Shown one piece after another: positions 2,953 through 58,390 of a stretch of DNA of 64,000 nucleotides (position 1 is its first letter; every line of letters begins with the position of its first letter). The notes under the pieces are model-generated. The model was not told the origin of the DNA. It was given only the letters and a program-made list of their open reading frames with translations, and did no database searches. The stretch is taken from contig NC_086108.1 in the NCBI RefSeq assembly GCF_963921235.1, positions 52,640,001-52,704,000 of the forward strand. Reading direction: 5' to 3'. A program made the position numbers and the translations under genes. The DNA is from Mobula hypostoma. Lineage: Eukaryota.

Positions 2953-3811
2953 CTACATTGGAGAGAATAAGGAGAGTGAAAAGTTAATGTTAACCTGTGT
3001 CTGGACACAATACTTTTTGTTAGAGGAGGTAGGATTCTAAGTTATTTGCACAAATTATGTTGCCTTATGAATCTTGTGTAAGGGAAGCAGCTCCCTACAG
3101 TTAAATAACTGAGATCAAGATATGCATGGTCAGAGAGAAATCATTTCTGCCATAACCCCATCACATCTTTTATTTCTGCACAGCGAGGGAGGAGTAGAAA
3201 GAAATGATGGAATGGGGTGCAAAATAAAATTGTCACAGATACTTTAAAAAAAATCAGCATTTAGAGATAGAAGAGAAAAAAAAAGACAACTTTAAACAGG
3301 AATTACAGCAACATCAGACAAGGGTGGGTACCTGAAAGAAGGATTTGCAAAATATCCCAATGAAAATTACGATGCTTACATTGGGCATCGTTTGAGTAAT
3401 ACAGGAGACCAAAGACTGAGAAGTGAGAGTGGGCATAAAATGCAAAATTAAAGTGACAGGCTACAGAAAATGCTGGGTCATTCTTGCACACTGAATGGAG
3501 GTGTCCTGCAAAGCAGTCACTCAATATCCATGAAGTTTCTTCAGTGTGTAGAAGGGACCACATCCTGAGCAGCAAATGCCAGGGAATAATTGTTTTGATC
3601 TCCAAGAAATATTTAGGTCCCTGGATGGTAGGAAAGGAAGAGATGAAAAGGCACATGTCATATCTCTCTTGGTTATATGGAAAACTGCAAAAGGGAGATG
3701 ATTCATGGAACAGCCAAACAGGGAGTCATGGAGGTAATTGTTCCTTTGAAATGCTGAAAGGGGAGGGAAGGGAAAATGTGTCTGCCGTTGAAACCTTGTT
3801 AAAGGTGGCAG

Positions 3812-4945
3812 AAAATGTCCAAGTCACTGAATATTCCTTGGAGTACAGTTAAATCAATCATCAAGAAATGGAAAAAAGATGGAACAGCTGTAAATCTGCC
3901 TAGAACAGGCCGTCCTCAAAAACTGAGTGACTGCAAGAAGCGGACTAGTGAGGAGACTACCAAGAGACCTATGACAACTCTGGAGGAGTTACAAGCTTCA
4001 GTGGCTGAGATGGGAGAGACTGTTCATACAACAACTGTTGCCTGGGTGCTTCACCAGTCGCGGATTTATGGGAGGGTGGCAAAGGGAAAGCCACTGTTGA
4101 AAAAAACTCACATGAAATCTCAGCCAGAGTTTGCCAGAAGGCATGTGGGAGACTCTGAAGGCAGCTGGAAGAAGGTTCTATGGTCTGATGAAATCAAAAT
4201 TGAGCTTTTTGGCCATCAGACTAAATACTATGTTTGGTGTAAGCAAATCATCAAAAACACACCATCCCGACTATGAAGCGTGTGGTGGCTGCATTGTGTT
4301 GTGTGGATGCTTCACTGCAGCAGGCCCTGGAAGGCTTGTGAAAGTAGAGGGTAAAATGAATGCAGCAAAATACAGGGAAATCCTGGAGGAAAAGCTGATG
4401 CAGTCTGCAAGAGAACTGTGACTTGGGGGAAGATTTGTTTTCCAGCAAGACAATGACTTCAAACATAAAGCCAAAGCTACACAGGAATGGCTTAAAAACA
4501 ACAAAGTTAATGCCCTGGAGTGGCCAAGTCAGAATCCAGACTTCAATCCAACTGAGAATTTGTGGCTGGACTTGAAAAGGGCACGATTCCCATACAATCT
4601 GACAGAGCAAGAGCAATTTTGTAAAGGAGAACAGGGGAAAAGTGTCCAGATGTGCAAAGCTGATACAGACCTATCCACACAAGGCTGTATTGCTGCCAAA
4701 GGTGTATCGACTAAATACTGATTTGAAGAGGGTGTATACTCATGCAATCAATTATTTTGTGATTTATGTTTGTAATTAATTTAGATCAGTTTGTAGAGAT
4801 CTGTCTTCACTTTGACACGAAATAATTTTTTTCTGTTGATCAGTGTCAAAAAAGCCAAATTAAATCCACTGTGATTCAATGTTGTAATATAATACAGCAT
4901 GAAAACTTCTGGGGGGGGGGGTGAACACTTTTTATAGGCACTGTA
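3812..4945 (+). mobile_element. 5'-truncated Tc1/mariner transposon with disrupted transposase
   Basis: ORFs 3815..4276 and 4131..4421 contain the GRPQKL motif, WKKVLWSDE and KMNAAKYREIL; FQQDND and SPDFNP-like motifs follow; right end ...ATAGGCACTG followed by TA. Confidence 0.9.
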
Positions 4946-10409: not shown

Positions 10410-10480
10410 CTGTTGTGATATATAACCGCAGTATATGACTCTTTTGTAAATTCCGCACAACTTGATTTTCCAAAAATAAC
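10410..10480 (-). CDS. DOCK7: DOCK7-like internal exon (71 nt)
   Basis: VIFGKSSCAEFTKESYTAVIYHNR, tag/gtaaga flanks. Confidence 0.95.
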
Positions 10481-15058: not shown

Positions 15059-15176
15059 CTGCAGTGCATTGTTCTGATCTTCCCCAGACATAAACTGGAC
15101 TTTCACGGTAATATTTCTAGCAGATCCTTGACGGTTTGCAAAATTAAGACTCTGCGGATACACGTACAGCAAATTC
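15059..15176 (-). CDS. DOCK7: DOCK7-like internal exon (118 nt), start of DHR-1/C2 domain
   Basis: [39 protein letters not shown], tag/gtaaag flanks; [24 protein letters not shown] fits DOCK7 better than DOCK6 or DOCK8 as recalled. Confidence 0.95.
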
Positions 15177-16954
15177 CTATGGAATTAAACAAAGTTAATG
15201 AGATGCAAGATCTTGTGTGAAAATTGAATATAGAGGGGTTTATGTATCAATAGCTAACTATGACGTTGGTAGGAACGGAGCAAGAAAGTGTACAGAAATT
15301 CCAATGCTATTTCAGATACAAGATCCAGTTGAATGTACAGGTAAAAGAAACCACAAGGGATAGTTTTATGCACTATAAGAGTCAGTTAAATCTAGCCCTG
15401 GGCTAAAATCACTGCTTTTCAGAAGAGAGCAACCTTGTTGTTTCAACATCCCACTCGGGTTTTAATGCAAGAAAACATTTAGAAAACTGGTTTCGCTCTT
15501 TTCAAGTCAACTCTTTCATGCTCAAAAACAAACAAAAAAAAACAAGTCAGGCAGCATCTATGGAGGGGAATAAACAGTCAACGTTTCGGGCCGAGACCCC
15601 TCATCAAGACTGGAAAGGAAGAAGACAGAAGTTAGAACAGAAGGTGGGGAAAGAGAAGGGGGTACAAACTAGCAGGTGATAGGTGAGAACAAGAAATGAC
15701 AGCCTTACTAGCATTGTCCGTATAATATCACTAATTTTTAAAAATCACTATCACACTTATGGAATAATTCTCATTTTTAGTCATTATAAAGTAAACAAAT
15801 GTATTTATACTGGGTGAAGCTACTTACAATAAGACAAATAATTTATGACATTTTCTTACCTGCTATCGTATATAACTACAGTATACCCAATTTACTAACC
15901 TCCCCTTCACCTGATCTCATCTACCAGCTTGTACATCTTCTCCTCTCCCCACCTTCTTCTGGCCTTTACCCCCTTCCAGTCTTGATGAGGCACTTGGCCT
16001 AAACCGTCCACTGTTAATGTATGCTATCTCACTTGCTGAGTTCTACCAGTATTTTGTGTGTGTTGTTCAAGATTCTCCTGTGTTTATGATGTGCAGGAAT
16101 TCAAAATGGTTGCTTTTGCATTGACATTTTAAACAGCCTTGTATTTTACACGTGAAAAGTAGTTAATCCTTAATCTGCTCAATAATTATTAGACCTGTGT
16201 TCCTGTGGCACACCACCTCCCATCAACTCACTCACCCACAGAGATGGCCACTACTCTTGTGCAGTTTTCCCCACAAAGAAAGCCAACGTATCACAAGCTT
16301 AACAAAAATAAAAAAGTATTATATTTTTGAAAGTATACTTTTGGTATTTTCATTTGTTCCAATCTACAGCAGTCTGTGAGACGTTTAAACGTCTGTGAAA
16401 ATTCACTGACACAGCTGATTGGTTACCTAGCTCAATGGCTCATTACTGGGAGTCAGAGGTCCCTTAGAACTGTACAAGATAGCATGCACCATTAGAAATA
16501 GGAATGTTGACACCATAGAGATCATTAAATCGTGGCACATTTCTCCGAGGTCTATACTACCGACAATAAAATCTGGCCATCAGCTCATCTCAGGCAATGC
16601 GAGAGCAACAATAGTGTAAATGGCCTCAGTGTCCCTTGCTCAGAAGGTGTGTGGATGTTTTGAGAATAGAATCTGAATTGCCAGAGATGAGAAGCCTTAG
16701 GGTGAAGACTCGTATTTGAAGAGATAGTAGGGCCTTGAATATCAATAAAACCGCTTTCAAATGGAATGCTGCATTTCGATGACAGGCAGTTGGTGAGGTC
16801 GCTCTTGTACCAAAGCCACAAGCATCAGGCACTGAAAATTTAAAAAGTATTTAAGACAGATAAATATGGAGCAAATCAATTCCTGTGAATATTTAAGAAA
16901 ACTGTAATTAAGGCTTTAAACTTAAAGTATCCTGAAATAAAGTCTAAAGTTGGG

Positions 16955-21537: not shown

Positions 21538-21596
21538 TGAACCTGTTTAATCATCAGCTAAAAGATTGAAATGGTCAATAAATGGAGGTATATAAA
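21538..21596 (+). promoter_or_regulatory. Putative ANGPTL3 proximal promoter: TATA box plus DR4-like/HNF1-like element
   Basis: TATATAAA at 21589-21596, about 40 nt upstream of ATG 21637; TGAACC-TGTT-TAATCA at 21538-21553 overlapping GTTTAATCATCAGC. Confidence 0.5.
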
Positions 21597-21636
21597 GGAC
21601 TTTGCTAGAAAGGGCACTCTCAAGTATTGCGAAAAA

Positions 21637-22119
21637 ATGAAAATGCTCTTTCTGGCATTCCTCATTTTACTTCTGACCCATTATTCTGTTCAAATACCAG
21701 TAAACAATTCTGGCTCAGAACCCGCTTCTAGATTTGCAATGCTGGATGACGTGAGGATTTTAGCCAACGGACTGCTTCAGCTGGGACATGGTCTAAGAGA
21801 TTTTGTCCAGAAAACTAAAGATCAAGTGAATGAAATATTTGAAAAAATTAGTATTTTCGACAGATCTTTCACTGAACTCTCAAAGGAAACCAACGGGATC
21901 AAACATAATGAACAGGAACTGAAAAAACATACTGCAATTCTACAAGCCAAAAATGATGAGCTAAAAACTATGTCACTTGACATCAAAGAAAAATTAAACA
22001 GCATTGTGGAAAATCAGACTTTTCTAGAAACAAAAGTAGAAGGTCTGGAAGACAAACTATACAAACTGAATGAAATCAAATCAGAAATATTGGAGATAAA
22101 GAAGATCCCATCTCTAAAA
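21637..22119 (+). CDS. ANGPTL3: Angiopoietin-like 3 exon 1 (signal peptide, SE1 motif, coiled coil), 161 codons
   Basis: MKMLFLAFLILLLTHYSVQ signal-like start, then EPASRFAMLDDVRILANGLLQLGHGLRDFVQKTKDQVNEIFEKISIFDRSF (ANGPTL3 SE1 region); ends AAA|GTAAGT; nested antisense in the DOCK7 intron. Confidence 0.95.
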
Positions 22120-23580: not shown

Positions 23581-23694
23581 GTTCTTATTGAAGAACAAAC
23601 CAAAAATATCAAAAGCCTGATCAATACTTTACAGAAGCAACACAGTAACCTGGACAAGCAGAGCCATCAAACACAGAAACTGGAAGAAAAGTAA
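23581..23694 (+). CDS. ANGPTL3: ANGPTL3 exon 2 (coiled coil), reading into an in-frame TAA
   Basis: Acceptor ...actccactag, then VLIEEQTKNIKSLINTLQKQHSNLDKQSHQTQKLEEK followed by TAA at 23692-23694; resembles the recalled human exon 2 (TFVEKQDNSIKDLLQTVEDQYKQLNQQHSQIKEIENQ). Confidence 0.85.
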   Translation, partial: VLIEEQTKNIKSLINTLQKQHSNLDKQSHQTQKLEEK

Positions 23695-23721: not shown

Positions 23722-23727
23722 AATAAA
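23722..23727 (+). terminator. Candidate polyadenylation signal just after the ANGPTL3 exon 2 stop
   Basis: AATAAA 27 nt after TAA, followed by a TG-containing stretch (ttgctgtgtc); AATAAA is common in this AT-rich DNA. Confidence 0.35.
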
Positions 23728-31250: not shown

Positions 31251-32460
31251 CTCTGGCAAACTAATTACATTCTGCATCAGAAACATGCTTCATATTTTGC
31301 TCTTAATTTTAGGGCAAATTTGTATAGACATCTAGTATAGATTTAATGGATCAGCAGATTTTAATCAACCCTTAGCAAGCTTATAAAAATGGCTTTGGTT
31401 CACGGGAAGATAAGAAGATTATGTTACCATGTCTTTAAAAAAATTTCAGTAAATTATATCCTTGTCAACTTGAGTCTGTTTGTTATGAGACAGTGTGGAG
31501 GTGGTGGTTGTAGAGATGGCAGGGAAGTTAGATCCACACACACAATTGTTCCTGAACATTCCCATGGGAACAAGTGTGTATCTGCACAAATGAAGATGAT
31601 GAGAATCATTCTTGGTGACTGGGCCTGCAAAATCTGACCAAACATGCACCCAAAGAATCAGAATTTGGCGTCCACAGACTTCAGCCAAAAATAAAAGTTG
31701 AAAAGTTTGAAATGGAACCACCCTTAAACATAATAAATGATAACATTCATGATGGACATTCAACAAAATATAAATAAAGTACAAAAATCAAAAATGTCTG
31801 ATGGTTTAAAATCAATTCTATCCAGTCCTTTCCACAAATCCAAAATAAGCAGTATTTAATTTTTATGTTATTTGGGAGAAGATACAAATCGGCTTAGAAG
31901 GGCGTAAAAATAAACAAAATTACAATTAGTTTTTTTTTAAAAGGTTGTGGACAAATCACAGATATTTTCCACATACTTTTAAATTCACAGAACATTACAG
32001 CACAGTACAGGCCTCTCAGCCCATGATGTATGCTGAGCTTTTAACTCATTCTAAGATTATCCTGTTATCCATGTGCCTATCAAAAAATTTCTTGTATGTC
32101 CCTAATGTATCTGCTTCAACCACCAGCCCTGTGCTCTATACACCCACCACTCTCAATTTAAAAAACTTACTTTTCACATACTCCCTCTACTTTCTTCCAA
32201 TCACCTTTAAAATTATGGTCCCTCATATTAGCCACTTCCACCCTTGGAAAAAGTCTCTGGCTGTCCACTCAAGCTATGCCCCTTATTATCGTGTACACCT
32301 CTATCAAGTCACTACTGATCCAAACAGAAAACCACTAGATCACTCAACCTGTCCTCATAAAACATGCGCTCTAATTCAGGCAGCATCCTGATAAGTCTCC
32401 TCTGCAACCTTTCTAAAGCTTCCACATCCTTCCCATAAAGAGACAACCAGAAGTGAACAC

Positions 32461-33724
32461 TGTATTGGAGGGGTCGTGATGGGGTGGGTGCTTTAGGAAC
32501 TGATATTTCCCTCCCTACAATTTGACCTCCACCTGAGTCCCGACCCTCAGGGTTATCCCTCAGCCAGTGAGCAGACCCAGGGAATGCTGGTGCAGGCTCC
32601 GAAATGAGCACAGTTCCAACCTTTCAGTAGGCCACAGTGACTGTGAGCGGGACTAGTATCCGGGCGCTCCAGTGACCACTGCCGATGTTGCCGCTAAGCT
32701 GGGGGCTCCCTGGACTTTGAACGGGACCCACTGGATTTGCGGCCACAGCGCCTACCCGTGGCTCCCCGCGAGCTGGTACGGTTGTTGCTTTCCAGCATAT
32801 GTGGTGCCCTTCATCCACCCCCCTGAACGATCTGGGGGAGCACCCGGCATACAGCAGTCACCAGGACAAGAGGGCCATCACGGAGGCGGAGAGGTTCTGG
32901 ATGATAGCCTTTCCCAGATATGGCTCGGCCCGATTGTCCCGTGAGGTGATCCAGATAACCAGTGTACTCGAGAGGCTGGCCAACGAAACGGCAGTGGCAC
33001 TGCAACACACCGAAGATGCCCTCACCCGAACGGCGGCAGAGCTGGTGGCCGTCAGGATGGTCGCCCTGCAGAATCGACTGGCCCTGGATTACCTACTCGC
33101 GGCTGATGGTGGTACCCGTGCAGTGATTGGTAAGGAGTGCTGCACATTTATCCCTGACGAGTCGAGTAACATCACCCACTCACATTCGGGACTTGGTGGC
33201 TAAAATTCAAAAATCGAGGGGCCAGCTCCTCCAGCACAACACCTCATGGAGAAACTGGTGGCCGTTGGGTCCCGGAGGGGGAGGGGCTGGTGGGCAACTG
33301 TCATCCACTGGTCGATTGGACTCATTCTCGTTATCATCGCTGCGTGTATATAATGTTGTGCTTGCCAAATTATTCAGAGCACATCTGCCTTTCTTTAGTT
33401 CTATATAGTCACATATAGCTTTAACCTTAGAAATAGTTAAGTGTAAGACTTCCATTAAGATATATTACTTTCCTTCTCACTGTGTTACATGTAATGCTTG
33501 GCATGTAATGCATGCGATTTTCCCACGTTCGTTACTAATCGTCCGCATGTGTTTTATTGCCCATCCGACTTTCCCCACGATTGCTGTAAATTGTGCACGT
33601 GTGCGTGTTGCTTCTGTTGTCATTTCCCCACATTTGTCTTCTGTAAATAAAATCCTTTACTACCAAGACTGTGTGTCCAGAGTCCTTGCCTTTGAGATCT
33701 ACTGAATCTGTTTCCTCACTTACA
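32461..33724 (+). mobile_element. Endogenous retrovirus env fragment (SU end plus TM) and probable 3' LTR
   Basis: GTHWICGHSAYPWLPASWYGCC, QDKR/AITE cleavage-like site, LQNRLALDYLLAADGG immunosuppressive domain, ECCTFIPD, hydrophobic VIHWSIGLILVIIAACI; downstream AATAAA 33646-33651 and terminal TACA. Confidence 0.85.
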
Positions 33725-36555: not shown

Positions 36556-37692
36556 CCCTCTGGTCAGTCACAGCCTGACTTTGAGCAATCAAAGAAATTT
36601 CAGACATTATGTTCCAGTTCCAGCAAGTATATATTCACTTGATCCTCAACTTCTTCGCCAATGTTGATTAAATTAGCAGCATAGAGCAGATGCTCACGAT
36701 ATACGAACACTGTGAGTAAATCCGTACAAATACTTTGAGTAAATCCAGCAGATTTTGTCTGCTCCTTCTTGTCCCATCTCCACAATCCTGCTTCAAAATA
36801 TAGATGCCACTATGGAGAACGCATCACAAACTGGGTTCTATTACTTTTACCCTTAGCCTGGACCTCAAGTTGCTGATAAGAAGGCAATGATTTTGCAGAA
36901 AAAATTTGACAGAGCTGCCAATGTTTACTGACTTTACTTGTGCAAATGAGAGCAACTCCTGCATTCCTATAATTGCATTTATGATTACTGAATTCCTTAC
37001 ATTGCAGTCAGCTTTTCAACGTTTTTCCAACTCAGCTCATTGCTGGAGAGTAGCCTGAATTTGCTGTGTTTTCCCATCGCCTGCATTGTCCCACTTAATT
37101 CAAACTATTGTTATTTGTTTGCATTTAAATCTTTCTGTGTATTTAAATGAATTTAATGGCTTTTGAGTTTTCTATGTTATTTTCTCAAGTTAGTCTTCTT
37201 AAACAGTTCGGTTGCTTTTTAATAATTTCTAAATGCCACAAATACTGTTTTGACAGATTTAACACTTCCCATTAAATGGGAAGCTGGAACAAGAGAATGC
37301 GAGAAGGTATTTAAAATCATGAACCAGTTTTAACCGTCAGAGCTTCCTTCTAACTTCTTCCACATGACAGAAGGCACTGCCAGTGCACAGGGCTTCACAA
37401 ATTCTCTCAGAGCTGGCTCAGACTCACATCCTTGGATTGGAGCACTGCACAAAGCAGAAAGCACTACAGAATTAATGATTGCCTAGAGTTGGGATTGTAT
37501 CATTGCAGATCCTGACTGTTTTGAATAAAATGGGGACTGAATCACTCTGCTGTCCCACTCCCCCCAAGTGTTCCATCCCAGTTTCCTGTGATCATCAGTT
37601 CTGACCTTCTTACACCCAAGTAAAAAACTACAATAAATATATTTCTCATGTTTAACTTCAGTCTTTCAAAGCATCATTAATCCTTTGTGTAG

Positions 37693-37930
37693 GTGAATTC
37701 TGGTTATGGTTCGAAAAGGTACTCTATACAACATTATCAGGGAGATCACATTAAAATGGAAGGCCAGAAAAGTGACAAGCATTTCATAAAGTATACCTTT
37801 CACCTGCGTGAAAAGGGGAAAGATTATACTGCCTAACATCCTCTTGGGAAATGACTGAAAAGGCAGGAATTCCTTCTCTACCAAAGATAGGAGATATCAC
37901 ATCATACCAAATGTGCTGAAAATTATTAAG
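37693..37930 (+). pseudogene. ANGPTL3: Decayed ANGPTL3 fibrinogen-domain exon (human exon 6 equivalent)
   Basis: tag|GT GAA TTC TGG TTA gives GEFWLWFEK; frameshift to YSIQHYQGDHIKMEGQKSDKHFIKYTFHLREKGKDYTA* (TAA 37834); frameshift to SFSTKDR; frameshift to KCAENY* (TAA 37927). Confidence 0.85.
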
Positions 37931-39203
37931 TTGACTGTAATTAAATAAAGACTTAACTATTACGATTATTAACTATTAAGCAGAAAAAAACCAAAGAAAG
38001 CTGCCAGTAATTGGGGTCCAAATAGCATTAGGTGGATTTGCAGAGAGGTAGAGATGAAAAATTCTGATAAGGTAATGAATTAATGCATTTATGAGAAACC
38101 ATAATAGGACAGGGTTGTTGGGTGTAAAAAATGTGCCTGTTCTATAATATTCTCATTCAGTCAGGCAGCAAGTTCCAGGATTTAGACTTAGCAACAATAA
38201 AAAAAAGCCAATATACAGGATCATGTGTGATTTCAAGTGGAACCTGTAAGTGCGTTTCCTAGGTGTCTGTTCAGATCCTCTTGCTCAATGGTAGGGATGG
38301 CAGATATGCAAGTGGTTTCAGAATAGCCTAAGCTAGAGATCACAATGCCCTCTGCATACCGTACACATAGCAGCCACAGTGCATCAATGGTGAAGGGAGT
38401 GAATGTTTAAATGTGGGGGGATGGGAAGCAAAGGAGATAGGGCACTACTCAACACACTGTTTTTCTGAATGATTTTGAACATCTCAAGTGTTGCTGAAGT
38501 TGCACTCATCCAGCCAAGTGGAGAGAGTATTCCTTCACAGACCTGACCACATTTAGAAGCCCTCGGGATGTCAAGAGGTGAATCACTTGATGCAAGGTAG
38601 CTCTTGTGGCCACAGTATTTATATAGCTGAATCAGTTATATTTCTAGTAAACGATGACTCCAGGATGCTGATGGCAAGGAAAGCCATGATGGTATTACCA
38701 TAAAACTTCAAGGCTGAGAAGTTACATTTTCTTTTGTTGGAGGCTGTCACTGCCTGCAACTATATGTGGTGCAAATGTTCAATCAACCTGAGCCACTAAA
38801 GTCTTTGAACTCATGTTCTATATTTACTTGGCTCAGAAAAATAAGCATACAATTTCATGTTCAAATTTTAAACTACATTATTTTAATGGCAATATTATCA
38901 ATCTCAAAAGATTTAGGGTGACAAGTTAAATTATAAATAGAGGTTCAAGTCAAACTCAGGTACCACAGGTATTCATCTTCCACCTGGACACAAAGCAGAC
39001 CTCGGGGATTGATAATGAACCCAATAATTTCAGATCATCTGCCTGAGTCAGAACCGTCCCTACCTGCCAGAGGGTCAGTGACTGCTCCCAAAGGAGGCCA
39101 CCGCTCGGACCAGGCGTGAGTTCTGAGTCACGGAAGGACTCTACGATGTTCTGAAATTTATGTGATTGGGCTGTACTTTATATTGGTCTCCCAAAGGGGT
39201 CAG

Positions 39204-39770
39204 AGGGTCAGTGATCGCTCCCTAAGGGGCCGGGGGGGTCAGCGATCGCTCCCTAAGGGGCCGGGGGGGTCAGCGATCGCTCCCTAAGGGGCCGGGGGGG
39301 GTCAGCGATCGCTCCCTAAGGGGCCGGGGGGGGGTCAGCGATCGCTCCCTAAGGGGCCGGGGGGGGGGGTCAGCGATCGCTCCCTAAGGGGCCGAGGGGG
39401 GGGGTCAGCGATCGCTCCCTAAGGGGCCGGGGGGGGGTCAGCGATCGCTCCCTAAGGGGCCGGGGGGGGGGGTCAGCGATCGCTCCCTAAGGGGCTGGGG
39501 GGTCAGCGATCGTTCCCTAAGGGGCCGGGGGGGGGGTCAGCGATCGCTCCCTAAGAGGCTGGGGGGGTCAGCGATCGCTCCCTAAGGGGCCGGGGGGTCA
39601 GCGATCGCTCCCAAAGGGGCCGGGGGGGGTCAGCGATCGCTCCCTAAGGGGCCGGGGGGGGTCAGCGATCGCTCCCAAAGGGGCCGGGGGGTCAGCGATC
39701 GCTCCCAAAGGGGCCGGGGGGTTAGCGATCGCTCCCAAAGGGGCCGGGGGGTCAGTGATTGCTCCCAAGG
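39204..39770. repeat. GC-rich minisatellite, ~18 units of GGGTCAGCGATCGCTCCC(T/A)AAGGGGCCG(G)n
   Basis: Units counted directly; length ~30-35 bp, varying mainly in the G run. Confidence 0.95.
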
Positions 39771-40029
39771 GAGGCCACCACTCGGACCAGGCGTGAGTTC
39801 TGAGTCACAGAAGGACTCTTCGATGTTCTGAAATTTATGCGATTGGACTGTACTTTATATTGGTCTCCTTCAGTCTTTTGCCGTTATCTTCCTTACGGCG
39901 GATTGGTGAGTGGGTGATCTGTAAGTTCTTTGTGTTTTTTTGTGTGGTTGGGGGGGGTAGGGGTTTTTTGATGTCACTGTCACCGTTCTTTTTCACGTGT
40001 GGGGGGGGTTGGTCGCGGTTTTTTTCCCT

Positions 40030-41130
40030 GTAGGGGAAGGGTTGGGGATGTGTTGCTACTGTTGCTGTTTTTTCTGTGGGGAGGGAGGTCAGGGATTGTA
40101 TTGTTGCTGTTTTTTTCTGCGGGAGAGGGATCGGATTATATTGTTGCTGTTTTTTCTGCAAGGAAGGGGGTCAGCGATTGTACAGTCGCTGTTTATTTTC
40201 TGCAGGGCGGGTATTGGGGATTGTTGCTGTTATTTTCTGCAGGAGAGGGATCGGATTATATTGTTAATGTTTTTTTCTGCAAGGAGGGGGTCGGGTATTG
40301 TACAGTCGCTGTTTATTTTCTGCGGGGTGGGTATTGAGGATTGTTACTGGTGCTGTGTTTTTCTGTGGGAAAGGAGATCAGGGATCGCATTGTTGCTGTT
40401 TTTTCTGCGGGAGAGGGATCGGATTATATTGTTGCTGTTTTTTTCTGCAAGGAGGGGGTCGGGTATTGTACTGTTGCTGCTTATTTTCTGCGGGGGAGGG
40501 ATCGGATTATATTGTTGCTGTTTTTTTCTGCAAGGAGGGGGTCGGGTATTGTACTGTTGCTGCTTATTTTCTGCGGGGGAGGGATCAGATTATATTGTTA
40601 ATGTTTTTTTCTGCAAGGAGGGGGTCGGGTATTGTACTGTCGCTGTTTATTTTCTGCGGGGGAGGGTGTCAGGGATTGTTACTGTTTTTCTCTGTGGGAA
40701 AGGGGATCAGGGATCGCATTGTTGCTGCTTTTTCTGCAGGAGAGGGATCGGATTATATTGTTGCTGTTTTTTTCTGCAAGGAGGGGGTCGAGTATTGTAC
40801 TGTCACTGTTTATTTTCTGCAGGGGAGGGTGTCAGGGATTGTTACTGTTTTTATCTGTGGGAAGGGGGATCAGGGATCGCATTGGTGCTGCTTTTTCTGC
40901 AGGAGAGGGATCGGATTATATTGTTGCTGGTTTTTTCTGCAAGGAGGGGTCGAGTATTGTACTGTCGCTGTTTATTTTCTGCAGGAGAGGGGGTCAGGGA
41001 TTGTTACTGTTTTTTCTGTGGGTGAGGGATTCGGGGAGTGTATCGCTATTGTTTATTTCTGCATAGGAGGCGGCTGGGGATTGTTACTGCTGCTGTTCCT
41101 TTTTCTGCGGGGAGGGGTGCAGGGATTCTG
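40030..41130. repeat. Complex GT-rich minisatellite with ~40-bp subunits in higher-order arrangement
   Basis: Recurring subunits GGGATCGGATTATATTGTTGCTG, GGGGTCGGGTATTGTACTG, TCAGGGATTGTTACTG, ATCAGGGATCGCATTG. Confidence 0.9.
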
Positions 41131-43440: not shown

Positions 43441-43603
43441 CTGTATGTGGTGTACGGAACATACACATCCCTTGAAGGAAACTCCAGGATATCCTTTGTT
43501 GGTCTAACTCGAGTATCTGGGTAGGGTTTGACCTGTAGTAACTCTGGTGTGAGACAATAATGGGGATTTTCTGGAGCTGGAGAAATGTCTATTTTCAGTT
43601 GGG
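43441..43603 (-). CDS. DOCK7: DOCK7-like internal exon (163 nt), 5' flank of the ANGPTL3-containing intron
   Basis: [55 protein letters not shown], cag/gtaaga flanks. Confidence 0.95.
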
Positions 43604-49074: not shown

Positions 49075-52000
49075 ACAGGCACATAGGATCCACAAAGACA
49101 GAGTAGGTTGGATTCAAATTTGCTTGGCCAAAGATGGATAGAGGTGGTGAAGGGATGTTAATATGATGAGCGGTCTGTGACCTGTGGTGTGTTCCATGAG
49201 GATCAGGTCTGAGACCTCCGATTTGTGTGATATATGGTCAAAATGTAAGTGAATCTTACAAAAATTAGCAAAGTCGTGGATAGTGAAGGTCGTCATAAGA
49301 GTCAGCAAGATATAGACCATTTGGAAACGGGAGACAGAGGAATGGCAGATGGAGTTTAATCTGGATAAGCGTGAAGTGTGCTTTGGGAGGTTAAGTGTAA
49401 GAGGAAAGTAAATGGTAAATGGCAGAATCCTTTGGAGCACTGATGTGCCAAGGGATCTTGGTCCATAGCTCCCTGCAAATAGCAACACAACTAGGTAGGA
49501 TGAAAGAGCAGGTGCATGGTGCACTTGCTCTCACTGGTCAAGGTGTTCAATATAAAACAAGGGAAGTTCTCTTGTAGCTGTACAAAACATTGGTCGGGTC
49601 ACCTTAGATAACTGTATGCAGTTCTAGATGCCATATTACCATAAGACATAGGAACACAATAAGGCAATTTGATTATGGCTGATATATTATCCATCTCAAC
49701 CTCATTCTCCTGCCTTCTCTCTGAAACCTTTGACACCCTTACTAACCAAGAACCTATCAACCTCTGCTTTAAATATACCCAATGATTTGGCCTCCACAGC
49801 CATCTGTGGCAATGAATTCCAGATTCACCACTCTCTGAATAAAAAAATTCCTCCTCATCTGTCTTCGAAAGGGATGTCCTTGTAATCTGAGGCTGTGCCC
49901 TCTGGTCATAGACTACCTCACTATTAGAAACATCTTCTCCATGTCTACTTTATCTAGACCTTTCAATATTCAATGGCTCCAATGAGATTCCACCCCCCCG
50001 CATTCTTCTAAACTTTAGTGTGTAAAGACACAGAGCCATCAAATACTCTTCATATATTAACCCTTTCATTCACAGTATCATTCTTCTGAAGCTCCTCTGG
50101 ACCCTCTCAAATGCTAGCACATCCTTTCTATTACAGGAAGGATGTGGAGCCTTAGGAGAGGGTGCAGTAAAGGTTCACCAGGATGTTGCTGGAATTGGCG
50201 AGTGGTAGCTTTGAGAAAAGGGTGGACAAACTTGTGGACTGTTTTCTCTGGAGTGTTAGAGTCCGAGCGGGGTGACCTGACAGCAGCATACAAAATTACA
50301 AAAGGCACAGTTAGGGTAGAGAGTCAGTGCCTTTGTCCCAGGGTAGAAAAGCCAAATACTAAAGAGCATAGCTTTAATGTGAAAGGGGGTAAAGTCTAAA
50401 GCAGATTTATGAGGTAAGTTTTGATTTTATATTAACGGTGGTAGGCGCCGTGGGAGGTGGTGGAAAAAGATATGAGGATAATGTTTAAGAGACATTAGTA
50501 CAGGCACATGAACAACCAGGGAATAATAGGACACCAACTTTGTGCAGGTAGATAGGATTATTTAGATTGGCATGGAAAGCACAAACAAGTTGGGCCAAAG
50601 GACCTGTCCCTGAGCCACACTGTTCTATGTTCCAAGTTCTCAAATGGGAATGAACGTAATGTTATAGACAGATTAGAACCGGGTCAGGTCACATCTCTCA
50701 GTGGGCGAGCATCTGGGGGACAGTGACCGCTGCTCCCTGGCCTTTAACATTATCATGGAAACGGACAGAATCAGAGAGGACAGGAAAATTTTTAATTGGG
50801 GAAGGGCAAATTATGAGGCTTTAAGGCTAGAACTTGCGGGTGTGAATTGGGACGATGTTTTTGCAGGGAAATGTACATGTATGGACATGTGGTCGATGTT
50901 TAGGGATCTCCTGCAGGATGTTAGGGATAAGTATGTAAATATGTCCTGGTGAGGAAGAGAAATAATGGTAGGGTGAAGGAACCATGGGTGACAAGTGAGG
51001 TGGAAAATCTAGTCAGGTGGAAGAAGGCAGCATACATGAGGTTTAGGAAGCAAGGATCAGATAGGTCTATTAAGGAATATAGGGTAGCAAGAAAGGGGCT
51101 GAAGAGAGCAAGAAGAGGGCATGAGAAGGCCTTGGTGAGTAGAGTAAAGGAAAACCCCAAGGCATTCTTCAATTATGTGAAGAACAAAAGTATGACAGGA
51201 GTGAAGATAGGACCGATTAGAGATAAAGATGGGAAGATGTGCCTGGAGGCTGCGGAAGTGAGCGAGGTCCTCAATGAATACTTCTCTTCGGCATTCACCA
51301 ATGAGAGAGAACTTGATGACGGTGAGGACAATACGAGTGAGGTTGACGTTCTGGAGCATGTTGATATTAAGGGAGAGGAGGTGTCAGAATCGTTAAAATA
51401 CATTAGGACAGATAAGTCCCCGGGGCCTGATGGAATATTCCCCAGGCGAGGGAAGAGATTGCTGAGCCTCTGGCTAGCATCTTTATGTCCTCGTTGTCCA
51501 CGGGAATGGTACCGGAGGACTGGAGGGAGGCAAATGTTGTCCCTTTGTTCAAAAAAGGTAGTAGGGATAGTCTGGGTAATTATAGACCAGTGAGCCTTAT
51601 GTCTGTGGTGGGAAAGCAGTTGGAAAAGACCACTGCTCAATACAAGAGGACATGGCTTGAAAGTAAGGGGTGGGAAGTTCAAGGGGGATATTAGAGGAAG
51701 GTTTTACTACTCAGAGAGTGGTTGGTGCGTGGAATGCACTGCCTGAGTCAGTGGTGGAGGCAGATACACTCGTGAAATTTAAGAGACTACTAGACAGGTA
51801 TATGGAGAAATTTAAGGTGGGGGGTTATATGTGAGGCAGGGTTTAAGGGTTGGCACAACATTGTGGGCCGAAGGGCCTGTACTGTACTGTGCTGTACTAT
51901 TCTATGTTCTTACACAGAGATTGGTGGGTGTATGGAATACACTACCAGCGACAGGGATAGAGGCAGATACAATGGGGTCTTTAAGAGACTCTTAGATAGG

Positions 52001-55835: not shown

Positions 55836-58390
55836 CGTGCCGGATCTTCATTATTCCCTCTGACCTTTTTCCTCTCTGAAACAGAACACTCTGTCCTCAG
55901 TAAAGGCCTCACCTCTGCCTCCGTGCCCACACCTCAGTGAGTTCTGCACCCACCATGACACTGAGCTTTTCTTCCACTGCCTCCATCTCTGAGCTGACTT
56001 CTTAGGCAAGAACTTGCCACCCTGCACCAATGACCCCTTCTCCTGTCTTCAACTCTCCTCCTCTTCCTGGACATAAGACCCTGTTCTTCTGGCTGCTCTG
56101 GACCTTTTCACTGCCAACTGCCAACGGGACATCGACCATCTCGACTTCAACACTCATCTCTACAATTCCAACCCCACTCCTTCCGAACCCTCTGCTCTCC
56201 ACTCTCTCCACACTAATACTAAATTCATTATCAAAGCTGCAGATGGGGGGGGGGGTGCTGTAGTAGTCCGGCACATTGACCTCAGACACCTTCTCTTGCT
56301 TACGCCTTGTCCTCACTAAGAAGCACCAGGCCATTGTCACCCACCACCATCACTGACCTTATTAGCTCTGGGGATCTCCCATCCACGGCCACCAACCTCA
56401 TAGTTCCTGCAACCCACACCTCCAGTTTCTACCTCCTATCCAAGATCCACAAACCTACCTGCCCAGGTAGACCCATTGTTTCAGCTTATTCCTGCCCCAC
56501 TGAACTCAATTCTGCATACCTTGACTCTGTTTTATCCACCCCCCCGCTCCAGTTCAGTCCCCTCCTACCTACATCCGTGACACTTCACTCACTCTGCATC
56601 TTTTCAAGTTCCCTGGCCCCCATCATCTTATTTTTACTATGGATGTCCAGTCCCTATACACCTCCATCCCCCACCAGGAAGGCCTTAAGGCTCTCCAGTT
56701 TTTTCTGAACACCAGACCCAACGAGTTCCCCTCCACCACCTCTCTCCTCTGCCTAGTGGAACTTGTCCTCACTCCTAATAATTTCTCCTTTGGCTCCTCC
56801 CACTTCCTTCATACAAAAGATGTAGCCATGGGCACTCGCATGGGTCCCAGCTATGCCTGCCATTTTGTCAGCTATGTAGGACAGTCTATGTTCCAAGCCC
56901 ACACTGGTGGCCGTCCCGCACTTTTCCTATGCCATATTGACCACTGCATTATTGCTGCTTCCTGCACACATGCAGAACTCATTGACTTCATCCACTTTGC
57001 CTTCAACTTCCACCTTGCCCTCAAATTTACCTGGTCCAATTCCAACACCTCCCTCCCCTTTCTCGATCTGTCTGTCTCTATCTCTGGAGACAGCTTATCT
57101 ACAAATGTCTCATAAACCGAAGGACTCTCACAGCTACCTGGAGTATACTTCTTTCCACCCTATTACTTGTAAAAATGCAATCCCCTTCTCATTTTCACCA
57201 CATCTGCTCTCAGGATGAGGCTTTTTATTCCAGAATGAAGGAGAAGTCCTCCTTCATCAAAGAAAGGGGCTTCCCTTCCTCCACCATCAACGATGCTCTC
57301 AACCACATCTCTTCCATTTCACACACATCTGCTCTCATTCCATTCTCCCACCACCCAACCAGGGATAGGGTTCTTCTTGTCCACACCTACCACCCCACCA
57401 ACCTCTGCATCCAGCACATAATTCTCTGCAACTTCCGCCATCTCCAACGGGATCCCACAACCAAGCATATCTTTCTCTCTCCTCCCAACCCCCCCACTTT
57501 CTGCTTTCCACAGGGATCACTTCCTACGCGACTCCCTTGTCCATTTGTCTATCCCTACTGATCTCCCTCCTGGCACGTTCCCTTGCAAGCGGAACAAGTG
57601 CTACACCTGCCCTGACACCTCCTCCCTCCCTACCATTCAAGGCCTAAACAGTCTTTCCAGGTGAGGCGACACTTCACCCATGAGTCTGTTGGGGTTGTAT
57701 ACTGTGTCCAGTGCTCCCAGTGTGGCCTCTTGTATATCGGTGAGACCCAACATAGATTGGGAGATGCTTCGCCGAGCACTTACACTCCGTCCACGAGAAA
57801 AAAATGGGATCTCTCAGTGGCCACCCATTTTAGTTCCACTTCCCATTCCCATTCCAATATGTCTATCCATGGCCTCCTCAACTGTCGTAATGAGGCCACT
57901 CTCAGGTTGGAAGAGCAACACCTTATATTCCGTCTGGGTAGCCTCCAACCTGGTGGCATGAACATCAATTTCCGGTAATGCCACCCCTCCCTTCACCATT
58001 CCCCATTTCCTTTTCTCTCTCTCACCTTATCTCCTAGCCTGCCCATTGCCTCCCTCTGGTGCTCCTTTCCCTTTTTCTTTCTTCCATAGCCGTCTGTCCT
58101 CTCCTACTAGATTACCACCTCTCCAGCCCTGTATCTCTTTCACCAATCAACTTCCCAGCTCTTTACTTCACCCCCCCCCCCCCGGTTTCATCTATCACCT
58201 TGTGGTTCTCCCTCCCTCCCCCCCCCCCCACCTTTTTAGCTTTACTCATCATTTTTGTCCTCCAGTTCTGCTGAAGGATCTAGGCCCAAAATGTCAACTG
58301 TACTCTTTTCCATAGATGCTGCCTGGCCTGCTGAGTACCTCCAGCATTTTGTGTGTTGCTTGGATTTCCAGATCCGCAGATTCTCTCCTG
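55836..58390 (+). mobile_element. Penelope-like retroelement (RT plus GIY-YIG endonuclease), frameshifted
   Basis: FYLLSKIHKP..PGRPIVS, MDVQSLYTSIPH, AMGTRMGPSYA, LPFLDL and VVYCVQCSQCGLLYIGET...LEEQHLIFRLGSLQPGGMN. Confidence 0.9.

What the first reader, a model, noticed from the sequence alone, without database searches (positions are those of the whole stretch)
37693..37930. Fossil fibrinogen-like exon with multiple independent lesions
Motifs GEFWL..EK, YSI, KHFIKYTFHL...DYT, FSTKD and CAENY occur in the order of ANGPTL-family fibrinogen domains, but the reading frame shifts three times between them. TAA appears at 37834 and at 37927, where the conserved Ser of Y-S-G is expected. The splice acceptor is retained. 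Several non-homopolymer lesions imply long-standing loss of constraint rather than sequencing error. No ORF is called here on the plus strand, so automated annotation would miss it.
Basis: partly seen in the sequence, partly recalled or inferred. Interest (0 to 1): 0.75.

Follow-up and report, generated by a model that had tools for sequence, protein, structure and literature searches.

The report
Rays' ANGPTL3 lost its fibrinogen domain
The flagged stretch is a decayed exon of the blood-lipid regulator ANGPTL3 in a devil ray, but the gene looks shortened rather than dead: the ray and skate versions found keep only the front, lipase-blocking half, which makes them a natural test of what the lost back half is for.

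Summary
37693-37930 is a decayed exon 6 of ANGPTL3 (score 177 versus shuffled maximum 44), with five frameshifts, a nonsense codon and a dead donor. Exon 5 is also decayed (31313-31409); exons 3, 4 and 7 were not detected. The gene is not a plain pseudogene. Exons 1-2 are open and stop right after exon 2, giving 198 aa identical to the Mobula hypostoma RefSeq ANGPTL3. All 6 of 6 annotated batoid ANGPTL3 proteins found are 196-220 aa with no fibrinogen domain, while five sharks and a chimaera are full length. Signal peptide, SE1 lipase-binding core and coiled coil are kept. Best reading: batoids encode only the N-terminal lipase-inhibiting fragment, which mammals release with furin and which ANGPTL8 resembles; it is not ANGPTL8 (25-27% identity). 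Expression and activity are untested: no read evidence was obtained. Open twist: splicing a shifted exon-2 donor to the fossil exon gives the same 198-aa protein, so the fossil may be a 3' UTR exon. No paper on this was found in eight searches.

The parts
21637..22119 (+). ANGPTL3 exon 1 coding part: signal peptide, SE1 lipase-binding segment, first part of the coiled coil; open; donor AAA|GTAAGT
   Evidence: 72-75% identity to four shark ANGPTL3 proteins, 67% to a fifth; hydrophobic N-terminus; donor. An upstream in-frame ATG at 21571 lies before a TATA-like box, so 21637 or 21643 is the likelier start (inference)
21589..21597 (+). TATA-like box upstream of the start codon (sequence only)
   Evidence: read directly; function not tested
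23581..23691 (+). ANGPTL3 exon 2: rest of the coiled coil; open; ends at Lys198
   Evidence: 64-75% identity to shark exon 2; exon 1 + exon 2 = 198 of 198 identical to Mobula hypostoma XP_062921012.1
23691..23696 (+). Truncating site: reads AAG TAA (stop 23692-23694) or, equally, a weak donor AA|GTAATT shifted by one base; best explained by loss of one G at the old exon/intron border
   Evidence: the ancestral state is inferred, no shark DNA was available
23722..23727 (+). AATAAA 28 nt after the stop: candidate proximal poly(A) signal
   Evidence: chance of one within 40 nt is 4-7%; use not tested
31313..31409 (+). Decayed exon 5 (97 nt versus 96 expected): acceptor kept, nonsense TAG at 31333, +1 frameshift, donor GT changed to AT
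   Evidence: score 69.5 versus shuffled maximum 42.3, 0 of 40; 15-16 of 31 residues identical to five sharks; boundaries
37693..37930 (+). Decayed exon 6 (the finding): acceptor kept, five frameshifts, one in-frame deletion, nonsense TAA 37927, donor GT changed to TT
   Evidence: aligned blocks 45-50 of 73 residues identical to five sharks
37940..37949 (+). ATTAAA/AATAAA just behind the dead exon-6 donor: candidate distal poly(A) signal
   Evidence: chance about 4% within 25 nt; use not tested
43442..43598 (-). Host gene exon (DOCK7-type) on one side of the intron that holds ANGPTL3
   Evidence: translation and donor found with recalled motifs; no Pfam hit for this exon
15060..15178 (-). Host gene exon (DOCK C2/DHR-1 domain) on the other side of that intron
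   Evidence: Pfam DOCK-C2 E=1.1e-8; further exons near 10480, 5297 and 2949

Best explanation
This is the single-copy ANGPTL3 locus of a devil ray (Mobula), nested antisense in a DOCK7-type intron. In the batoid lineage the protein was cut short at the end of exon 2, and exons 3-7 (linker and fibrinogen domain) then decayed or were deleted. The flagged stretch is the best-preserved relic. The remaining gene makes a secreted 198-aa coiled coil with an intact SE1 segment, which most likely oligomerises and inhibits lipoprotein and endothelial lipase in plasma, as the furin-released N-terminal fragment of mammalian ANGPTL3 does. SHOWN: open exons 1-2, stop position, decayed exons 5-6, short annotated orthologues in six batoids, long ones in sharks, kept motifs, helical model. 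INFERRED: a single origin in the batoid ancestor, transcription with escape from nonsense-mediated decay, secretion, lipase inhibition.
For: Exons 1+2 give 198 aa identical to the Mobula hypostoma RefSeq protein. 6 of 6 annotated batoid orthologues are 196-220 aa; five end at the same E-K (Mobula, Hemitrygon, Amblyraja, Leucoraja, Rhinoraja) and Narcine adds 8 residues. No batoid protein appears among the best 120 hits of two searches for long forms, where five shark clusters and Callorhinchus rank on top. Six frameshifts lie in 335 nt of fossil exons and none in 594 nt of exons 1-2 (P=0.002 if uniform; post hoc). Between batoid orders the N-terminal region is 81-88% identical over 163-166 residues, like 84-92% among sharks. 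AMLDDVRILANGLLQLGHG is invariant in 6 of 6 batoids. AlphaFold2 gives one helix, residues 31-197, mean pLDDT 84.5. In mammals fragments 17-207 and 17-165 raise triglyceride and the fibrinogen fragment does not (PMC12812637, passages). Knock-in mice with only residues 1-224 are healthy and keep LPL and EL inhibition (PMC13733725, passages and Discussion).
Against: No read evidence for the transcript or its 3' end. RefSeq proteins are gene-model predictions, and their RNA support was not seen. Lipase inhibition is not measured. Batoid tips lie further from the elasmobranch ancestor than shark tips (0.21-0.26 versus 0.02-0.12 substitutions per site), which could mean relaxed or shifted selection; no dN/dS was possible. 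Only three of the four batoid orders were sampled, and Narcine's different C-terminus leaves independent truncations open. In mice, N-terminal-only ANGPTL3 gives 28% lower triglyceride than wild type and full activity needs ANGPTL8; no chondrichthyan ANGPTL8 was seen among the 20 of 93 distant hits that were named. Skates have changed the R of S-R-F at the SE1 edge.
Confidence: 0.8

Rival explanations
1. Same protein, but the flagged exon is still used: the shifted donor at the end of exon 2 splices to the kept exon-6 acceptor, the junction reads K-stop, and the fossil exon serves as the terminal 3' UTR exon ending at the AATAAA at 37944. This concerns the fate of the exon and is compatible with the best explanation.
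For: The join gives exactly the same 198-aa protein as read-through. The acceptor is kept (pyrimidine fraction 0.69, same as exon 2), the donor is dead, and ATTAAA/AATAAA follow within 15 nt (chance about 4%). The stop would lie in the last exon and so escape decay.
Against: The shifted donor is weak (6 of 9 consensus matches versus 7 for exon 1). A proximal AATAAA at 23722 offers a simpler route. Exon 5, which would give a different 206-aa product, has decayed to a broadly similar degree and also keeps its acceptor, so exon 6 needs no special reason to be recognisable. No reads.
Confidence: 0.2
2. The whole gene is a decaying unitary pseudogene; exons 1-2 are open by chance or through overlap with regulatory DNA in the DOCK7 intron.
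For: Five of seven exons are broken or missing; the batoid branch is long; no expression data here.
Against: No frameshift in 594 nt against six in 335 nt; an open frame ending at nearly the same residue in six species of three orders; invariant SE1 core; interorder identity as high as among sharks.
Confidence: 0.07
3. The short protein is made and selected but has changed job, for example as a partner or scaffold for ANGPTL4 or the second, ANGPTL3-like paralogue (an ANGPTL8-like role), rather than acting as a lipase inhibitor on its own.
For: Architecture and length match ANGPTL8 (198 aa, PMC5913278, passages); long batoid stem branch; catsharks have a further full-length ANGPTL3-like paralogue; mammalian ANGPTL3 alone is a weak LPL inhibitor.
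Against: The SE1 core is of ANGPTL3 type and unlike that of ANGPTL8; no binding data.
Confidence: 0.1
4. Assembly or sequencing artefact in an intact gene.
Against: Lesions include 7-14 nt deletions, nonsense changes and donor changes in two exons, three exons are missing, flanking host exons are clean, and five other batoid assemblies give the same short protein.
Confidence: 0.02

Closest known systems
ANGPTL3 of sharks, chimaera and other jawed vertebrates (457-491 aa in the chondrichthyans seen)
   Same: Orthologue: 73-77% identity to three sharks over 171 residues; antisense in a DOCK7-type intron as in human (PMC4284785, passages); same exon 1/2 border, SE1, signal peptide.
   Different: Stops at the end of exon 2; no linker or fibrinogen domain (Pfam Fibrinogen_C hits the shark protein at E=4e-66 and none of three batoid proteins scanned); exons 5-6 remain as fossils.
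Furin-released N-terminal fragment of mammalian ANGPTL3 (residues 1-224) and the A3-Nter knock-in mouse (PMC13733725)
   Same: Same part of the protein; in mice it is viable and keeps LPL and EL inhibition.
   Different: Made by the gene's structure, not by proteolysis; about 20 residues shorter; no full-length pool. The RAPR furin site is found in 3 of 3 mammals and 0 of 12 non-mammalian full-length proteins checked, in line with the paper's statement that it is mammal-specific.
ANGPTL8 (betatrophin/lipasin)
   Same: About 198 aa, signal peptide plus coiled coil, no fibrinogen domain, DOCK-intron gene.
   Different: A paralogue in the DOCK6 intron; 25-27% identity; forms its own clade (support 100) away from the batoid proteins. 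The likeness is convergent.
Other fibrinogen-less ANGPTL3-like proteins (lamprey 241-246 aa, hagfish 257 aa, medaka 201-250 aa, turtle/frog/marsupial 225-239 aa)
   Same: Annotated products of similar architecture: loss of this domain appears to recur in the ANGPTL3/4/8 group.
   Different: These are other paralogues or duplicates, or predate the jawed-vertebrate genes, and their gene models were not checked; in batoids it is the ANGPTL3 orthologue itself, with fossil exons still readable.

Membership tests
ANGPTL3 (orthology) | N-terminal region groups with ANGPTL3 of sharks, not with ANGPTL4 or ANGPTL8 | tested here: met
   Tree of 26 proteins: batoids plus sharks split from the rest with support 94; identity 73-77% to shark ANGPTL3, 22-30% to ANGPTL4-like, 25-27% to ANGPTL8
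ANGPTL3 (orthology) | Antisense in an intron of DOCK7 | tested here: inconclusive
   Host exons on the minus strand flank the gene and hit DOCK-C2 and solved DOCK8 and DOCK6 chains; the label DOCK7 rather than DOCK6/8 rests on recalled motifs and on the human arrangement, as no DOCK7 sequence came from a tool
ANGPTL3 (architecture) | N-terminal signal peptide | tested here: met
   Hydrophobicity peak 3.33 starting at residue 3; simple scan, no signal-peptide predictor
ANGPTL3 (architecture) | SE1 lipase-binding segment | tested here: met
   EPASRFAMLDDVRILANGLLQLGHGL versus mouse EPKSRFAMLDDVKILANGLLQLGHGL; core invariant in 6 of 6 batoids
ANGPTL3 (architecture) | Long coiled-coil helix | tested here: met
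   AlphaFold2 monomer: helix 31-197, mean pLDDT 84.5, pTM 0.33; oligomer not modelled
ANGPTL3 (architecture) | C-terminal fibrinogen-related domain | tested here: not met
   Stop after residue 198; exons 5-6 broken, 3, 4, 7 undetected; no Fibrinogen_C hit
ANGPTL3 (architecture) | Furin site in the linker (mammals) | tested here: not met
   Linker absent; sharks also lack R-x-x-R there
ANGPTL3 (function) | Liver expression, secretion, inhibition of LPL and EL | not testable with these tools
   No reads laid, no assay; inferred from PMC12812637 and PMC13733725
ANGPTL8 | About 200 aa, no fibrinogen domain | tested here: met
   198 aa; ANGPTL8 definition from PMC5913278
ANGPTL8 | Sequence falls in the ANGPTL8 clade | tested here: not met
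   25-27% identity to five ANGPTL8 or ANGPTL8-like proteins, which form a separate clade
Unitary pseudogene | No constrained open reading frame left | tested here: not met
   Open, conserved exons 1-2 in six species
Unitary pseudogene | dN/dS near 1 and no productive transcript | not tested
   No orthologous DNA or reads were obtained

The most novel reading that the evidence does not exclude
All rays and skates replaced full-length ANGPTL3 by a genetically encoded N-terminal lipase inhibitor, converging on mammalian furin cleavage and on ANGPTL8, and the flagged fossil exon is not junk but was co-opted as the terminal 3' UTR exon: one lost base at the end of exon 2 makes both read-through and splicing to old exon 6 end the protein at the same lysine.
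Probability: 0.18. Interest if true: 0.72.

Novelty: new variant of a known kind. Interest (0 to 1): 0.6.

Why it matters
ANGPTL3 is a drug target, and the role of its fibrinogen domain is open: a 2026 preprint finds no harm in mice lacking it 'despite strong evolutionary conservation' and cannot exclude effects under stress (PMC13733725, Discussion). If the reading holds, a whole vertebrate group has lived without that domain since before skates, electric rays and stingrays split (age of roughly 150-200 million years recalled, not from a call), while keeping the lipase-binding half. That gives a natural long-term test, a shark-versus-ray comparison for what the domain does, and a readable example of how an ANGPTL8-like architecture arises, with the discarded exons still in place. 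The short proteins are already in RefSeq under the ordinary name. An earlier family survey listed skate angptl3 as not identified (PMC5237311, supplement row).

Tried and rejected
No whole genome is held for this window, so other copies of ANGPTL3 elsewhere in this genome were not searched. No reads were laid, so transcript ends and lesion sharing are open. A metagenome scan with the 198-aa protein gave 175 pattern matches and 0 confirmed relatives. Exons 3, 4 and 7: scores 26.2, 27.2, 29.2, reached by 10, 25 and 39 of 40 shuffles, so not detected; exon 3 is poorly conserved anyway, so its absence is weak. PDB sequence search with the 198-aa protein: 0 hits. An HNF1-like site at 21546 has 3 mismatches and is one of 55 such matches against 42 expected (consensus recalled): rejected. 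The idea that Narcine's 8-residue tail is read-through of the same intron start: best codon match 14 of 24, reached by 5.6% of background positions: inconclusive. 'YSI' and the TAA at 37834 as independent evidence: rejected. Earlier scan findings: none by words or sequence. Literature: searches found no paper on batoid ANGPTL3 truncation; the library lacks most subscription papers. Complex prediction and fold search were not run.

Full report
Observation. The motifs are present at the stated places. tblastn with shark ANGPTL3 proteins hits 37692-37830 at E about 1e-7. A frameshift-aware alignment to a profile of five sharks and a chimaera covers the whole 93-residue exon at 37692-37926 with score 177.4; locally shuffled sequence gives a mean of 37.0 and a maximum of 43.9, 0 of 25 reaching it. 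The lesions are +1, an in-frame loss of three codons, -8, -14, -1 and -7 nt, a nonsense TAA at 37927 and a donor changed to TT; the acceptor AG at 37691-37692 is kept in the expected phase. The aligned blocks are 62-68% identical to five sharks (45-50 of 73), whereas sharks are 84-95% identical to each other in this exon.

Surroundings. The exon belongs to an ANGPTL3 gene on the plus strand. Exon 1 (21637-22119) and exon 2 (23581-23691) are open and match shark ANGPTL3 at 64-75%. A decayed exon 5 lies at 31313-31409 (score 69.5, 0 of 40 shuffles; nonsense codon, +1 frameshift, donor changed to AT). Exons 3, 4 and 7 were not detected above chance. Host-gene exons on the minus strand at 43598-43442 and 15178-15060 enclose the gene, with more at about 48400, 45200, 10480, 5297 and 2949; two hit Pfam DOCK-C2. 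Human ANGPTL3 lies antisense in DOCK7 and ANGPTL8 in DOCK6 (PMC4284785, passages). The name DOCK7 for this host rests on recalled motifs and that arrangement; the structure search returned DOCK8 and DOCK6 chains.

The gene is shortened, not simply dead. Directly after exon 2 the sequence reads AAG TAA, with AATAAA 28 nt further on. Exons 1 and 2 give 198 residues, 198 of 198 identical to RefSeq ANGPTL3 of Mobula hypostoma and 193 of 198 to Hemitrygon akajei, which places the window in a devil ray. A search for proteins of 87-279 aa put three batoid clusters on top. Their named members are Mobula 198, Hemitrygon 198, Narcine 204, Rhinoraja 196, Amblyraja 217 and Leucoraja 220 aa; a seventh, unnamed 189-aa member is an exon-1 read-through and was left out of the count. 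Five end at the same E-K and Narcine adds eight residues. Two searches for long forms listed five shark clusters and Callorhinchus on top and no batoid among the best 120 of 318 and of 2890 hits. These searches are word-based and also missed several annotated sharks, so absence is suggestive only. The six species cover three of the four batoid orders (order count from bioRxiv 2025.06.08.657570, passages; Narcine's and Mobula's placement recalled); no sawfish or guitarfish protein was seen.

Constraint on the kept half. Six frameshifts fall in 335 nt of fossil exons and none in 594 nt of exons 1-2 (P=0.002 under a uniform model, post hoc, not counting the border lesion itself). Between orders, batoids are 81-88% identical over 163-166 residues, close to 84-92% among sharks. 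The SE1 core AMLDDVRILANGLLQLGHG is invariant in all six, the N-terminus is hydrophobic, and AlphaFold2 gives one long helix from 31 to 197. Against this, batoid tips are 0.21-0.26 substitutions per site from the elasmobranch ancestor and shark tips 0.02-0.12, skates changed the R of S-R-F, and no dN/dS could be computed.

Mechanism. In mammals the N-terminal coiled coil with SE1 is the lipase inhibitor: fragments 17-207 and 17-165 raise triglyceride and the fibrinogen fragment does not (PMC12812637, passages). Furin releases it at RAPR, a site present in 3 of 3 mammals and 0 of 12 other full-length proteins checked. Knock-in mice with a stop at residue 225 are healthy, keep LPL and EL inhibition, have 28% lower triglyceride than controls and lose part of the mRNA, probably to decay (PMC13733725, abstract, passages and Discussion). 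The ray gene is the natural counterpart. I infer that one lost base at the exon-2 border ended the frame, that the transcript escapes decay because the stop is in its last exon, and that exons 3-7 then decayed. Secretion and lipase inhibition by the ray protein are inferred from the family, not shown. Whether the border lesion came first is unknown; Narcine's tail may reflect a different lesion (inconclusive).

Two routes to the same protein. The border can also be read as a weak donor shifted by one base (6 of 9 consensus matches). Joined to the exon-6 acceptor it gives the same 198 residues and an immediate stop; joined to exon 5 it would give 206. ATTAAA and AATAAA follow the dead exon-6 donor at 37940-37949 (chance about 4%). 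The flagged exon may therefore be a 3' UTR exon rather than unused DNA. Each sign is weak and read-through is simpler; I give it about 0.2. No reads were laid, so neither route is shown.

Comparison with what is known. The protein is an ANGPTL3 orthologue that fails one defining feature of the family's architecture, the fibrinogen domain. It works, most likely, like the mammalian N-terminal fragment and looks like ANGPTL8 (198 aa; PMC5913278, passages), but is not ANGPTL8: 25-27% identity and a separate clade in a 26-protein tree. A full HMMER scan gave 93 hits, of which 20 were named. They show ANGPTL8 annotated in lungfish and gar, and further short ANGPTL3-like proteins in lamprey, hagfish, medaka, turtle, frog and marsupials, so loss of the domain seems recurrent in this subfamily; those gene models were not checked. 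No chondrichthyan ANGPTL8 was among the 20.

Novelty. Eight literature searches found no report of the batoid truncation; only listings were seen for most hits and the library lacks most subscription journals. A family survey names ANGPTL8 as the one member without the domain (PMC5237311, passages) and lists skate angptl3 as not identified (supplement row). Supplements of the mouse preprint were not read. The short proteins are in RefSeq but under the ordinary name. Verdict: new variant of a known kind; interest 0.6.

Noticed in passing
window 32721-33200 (+): Open stretch with a retroviral env-like match (Pfam TLV_coat, E=1.2e-5, above cut-off) between the exon-5 and exon-6 remnants: an endogenous retrovirus fragment inside the old gene.
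   Followed up: partly
window 3803-4670 (+): Tc1/mariner transposase pieces (Pfam HTH_Tnp_Tc3_2, E=2e-15), split over several frames.
   Followed up: partly
window 39205-41022: Two tandem arrays: a 30-32 nt unit (17.8 copies, 92% matches) and an 83/163/329 nt nested unit, in the interval where exon 7 would be expected.
   Followed up: no
   Followed up: no
P0292, P0308, P0345, P0350: A further 'ANGPTL3-like' gene is full length (440-448 aa) in catsharks, and similar-looking proteins in turtle, frogs and marsupials are 225-239 aa without the fibrinogen domain; the catshark and turtle proteins group weakly (support 53). Possibly a little-described paralogue with its own domain loss.
   Followed up: partly
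P0325, P0356, P0336: ANGPTL8 is annotated in lungfish and gar and a gar-like protein occurs in arapaima; they group with marsupial ANGPTL8 (support 100), against older papers that call it mammal-only.
   Followed up: partly
P0287, P0351, P0309: Lamprey and hagfish ANGPTL3-like proteins (241-257 aa) are annotated without a fibrinogen domain and end in basic, arginine-rich tails.
   Followed up: partly
P0003/P0170 and P0004/P0171: Basking shark and smooth-hound have annotated isoforms that skip exon 5 in frame.
   Followed up: no
window 21571: An upstream in-frame ATG would add 22 residues resembling the N-terminal extension in two skate RefSeq models; it lies before the TATA-like box, so it may be a prediction artefact.
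   Followed up: partly
window 56280-57978 (+) and 50677-51593 (+): Retrotransposon fragments; weak Pfam RVT_1 match for 56525-57112 (E=0.004, below cut-off).
   Followed up: no
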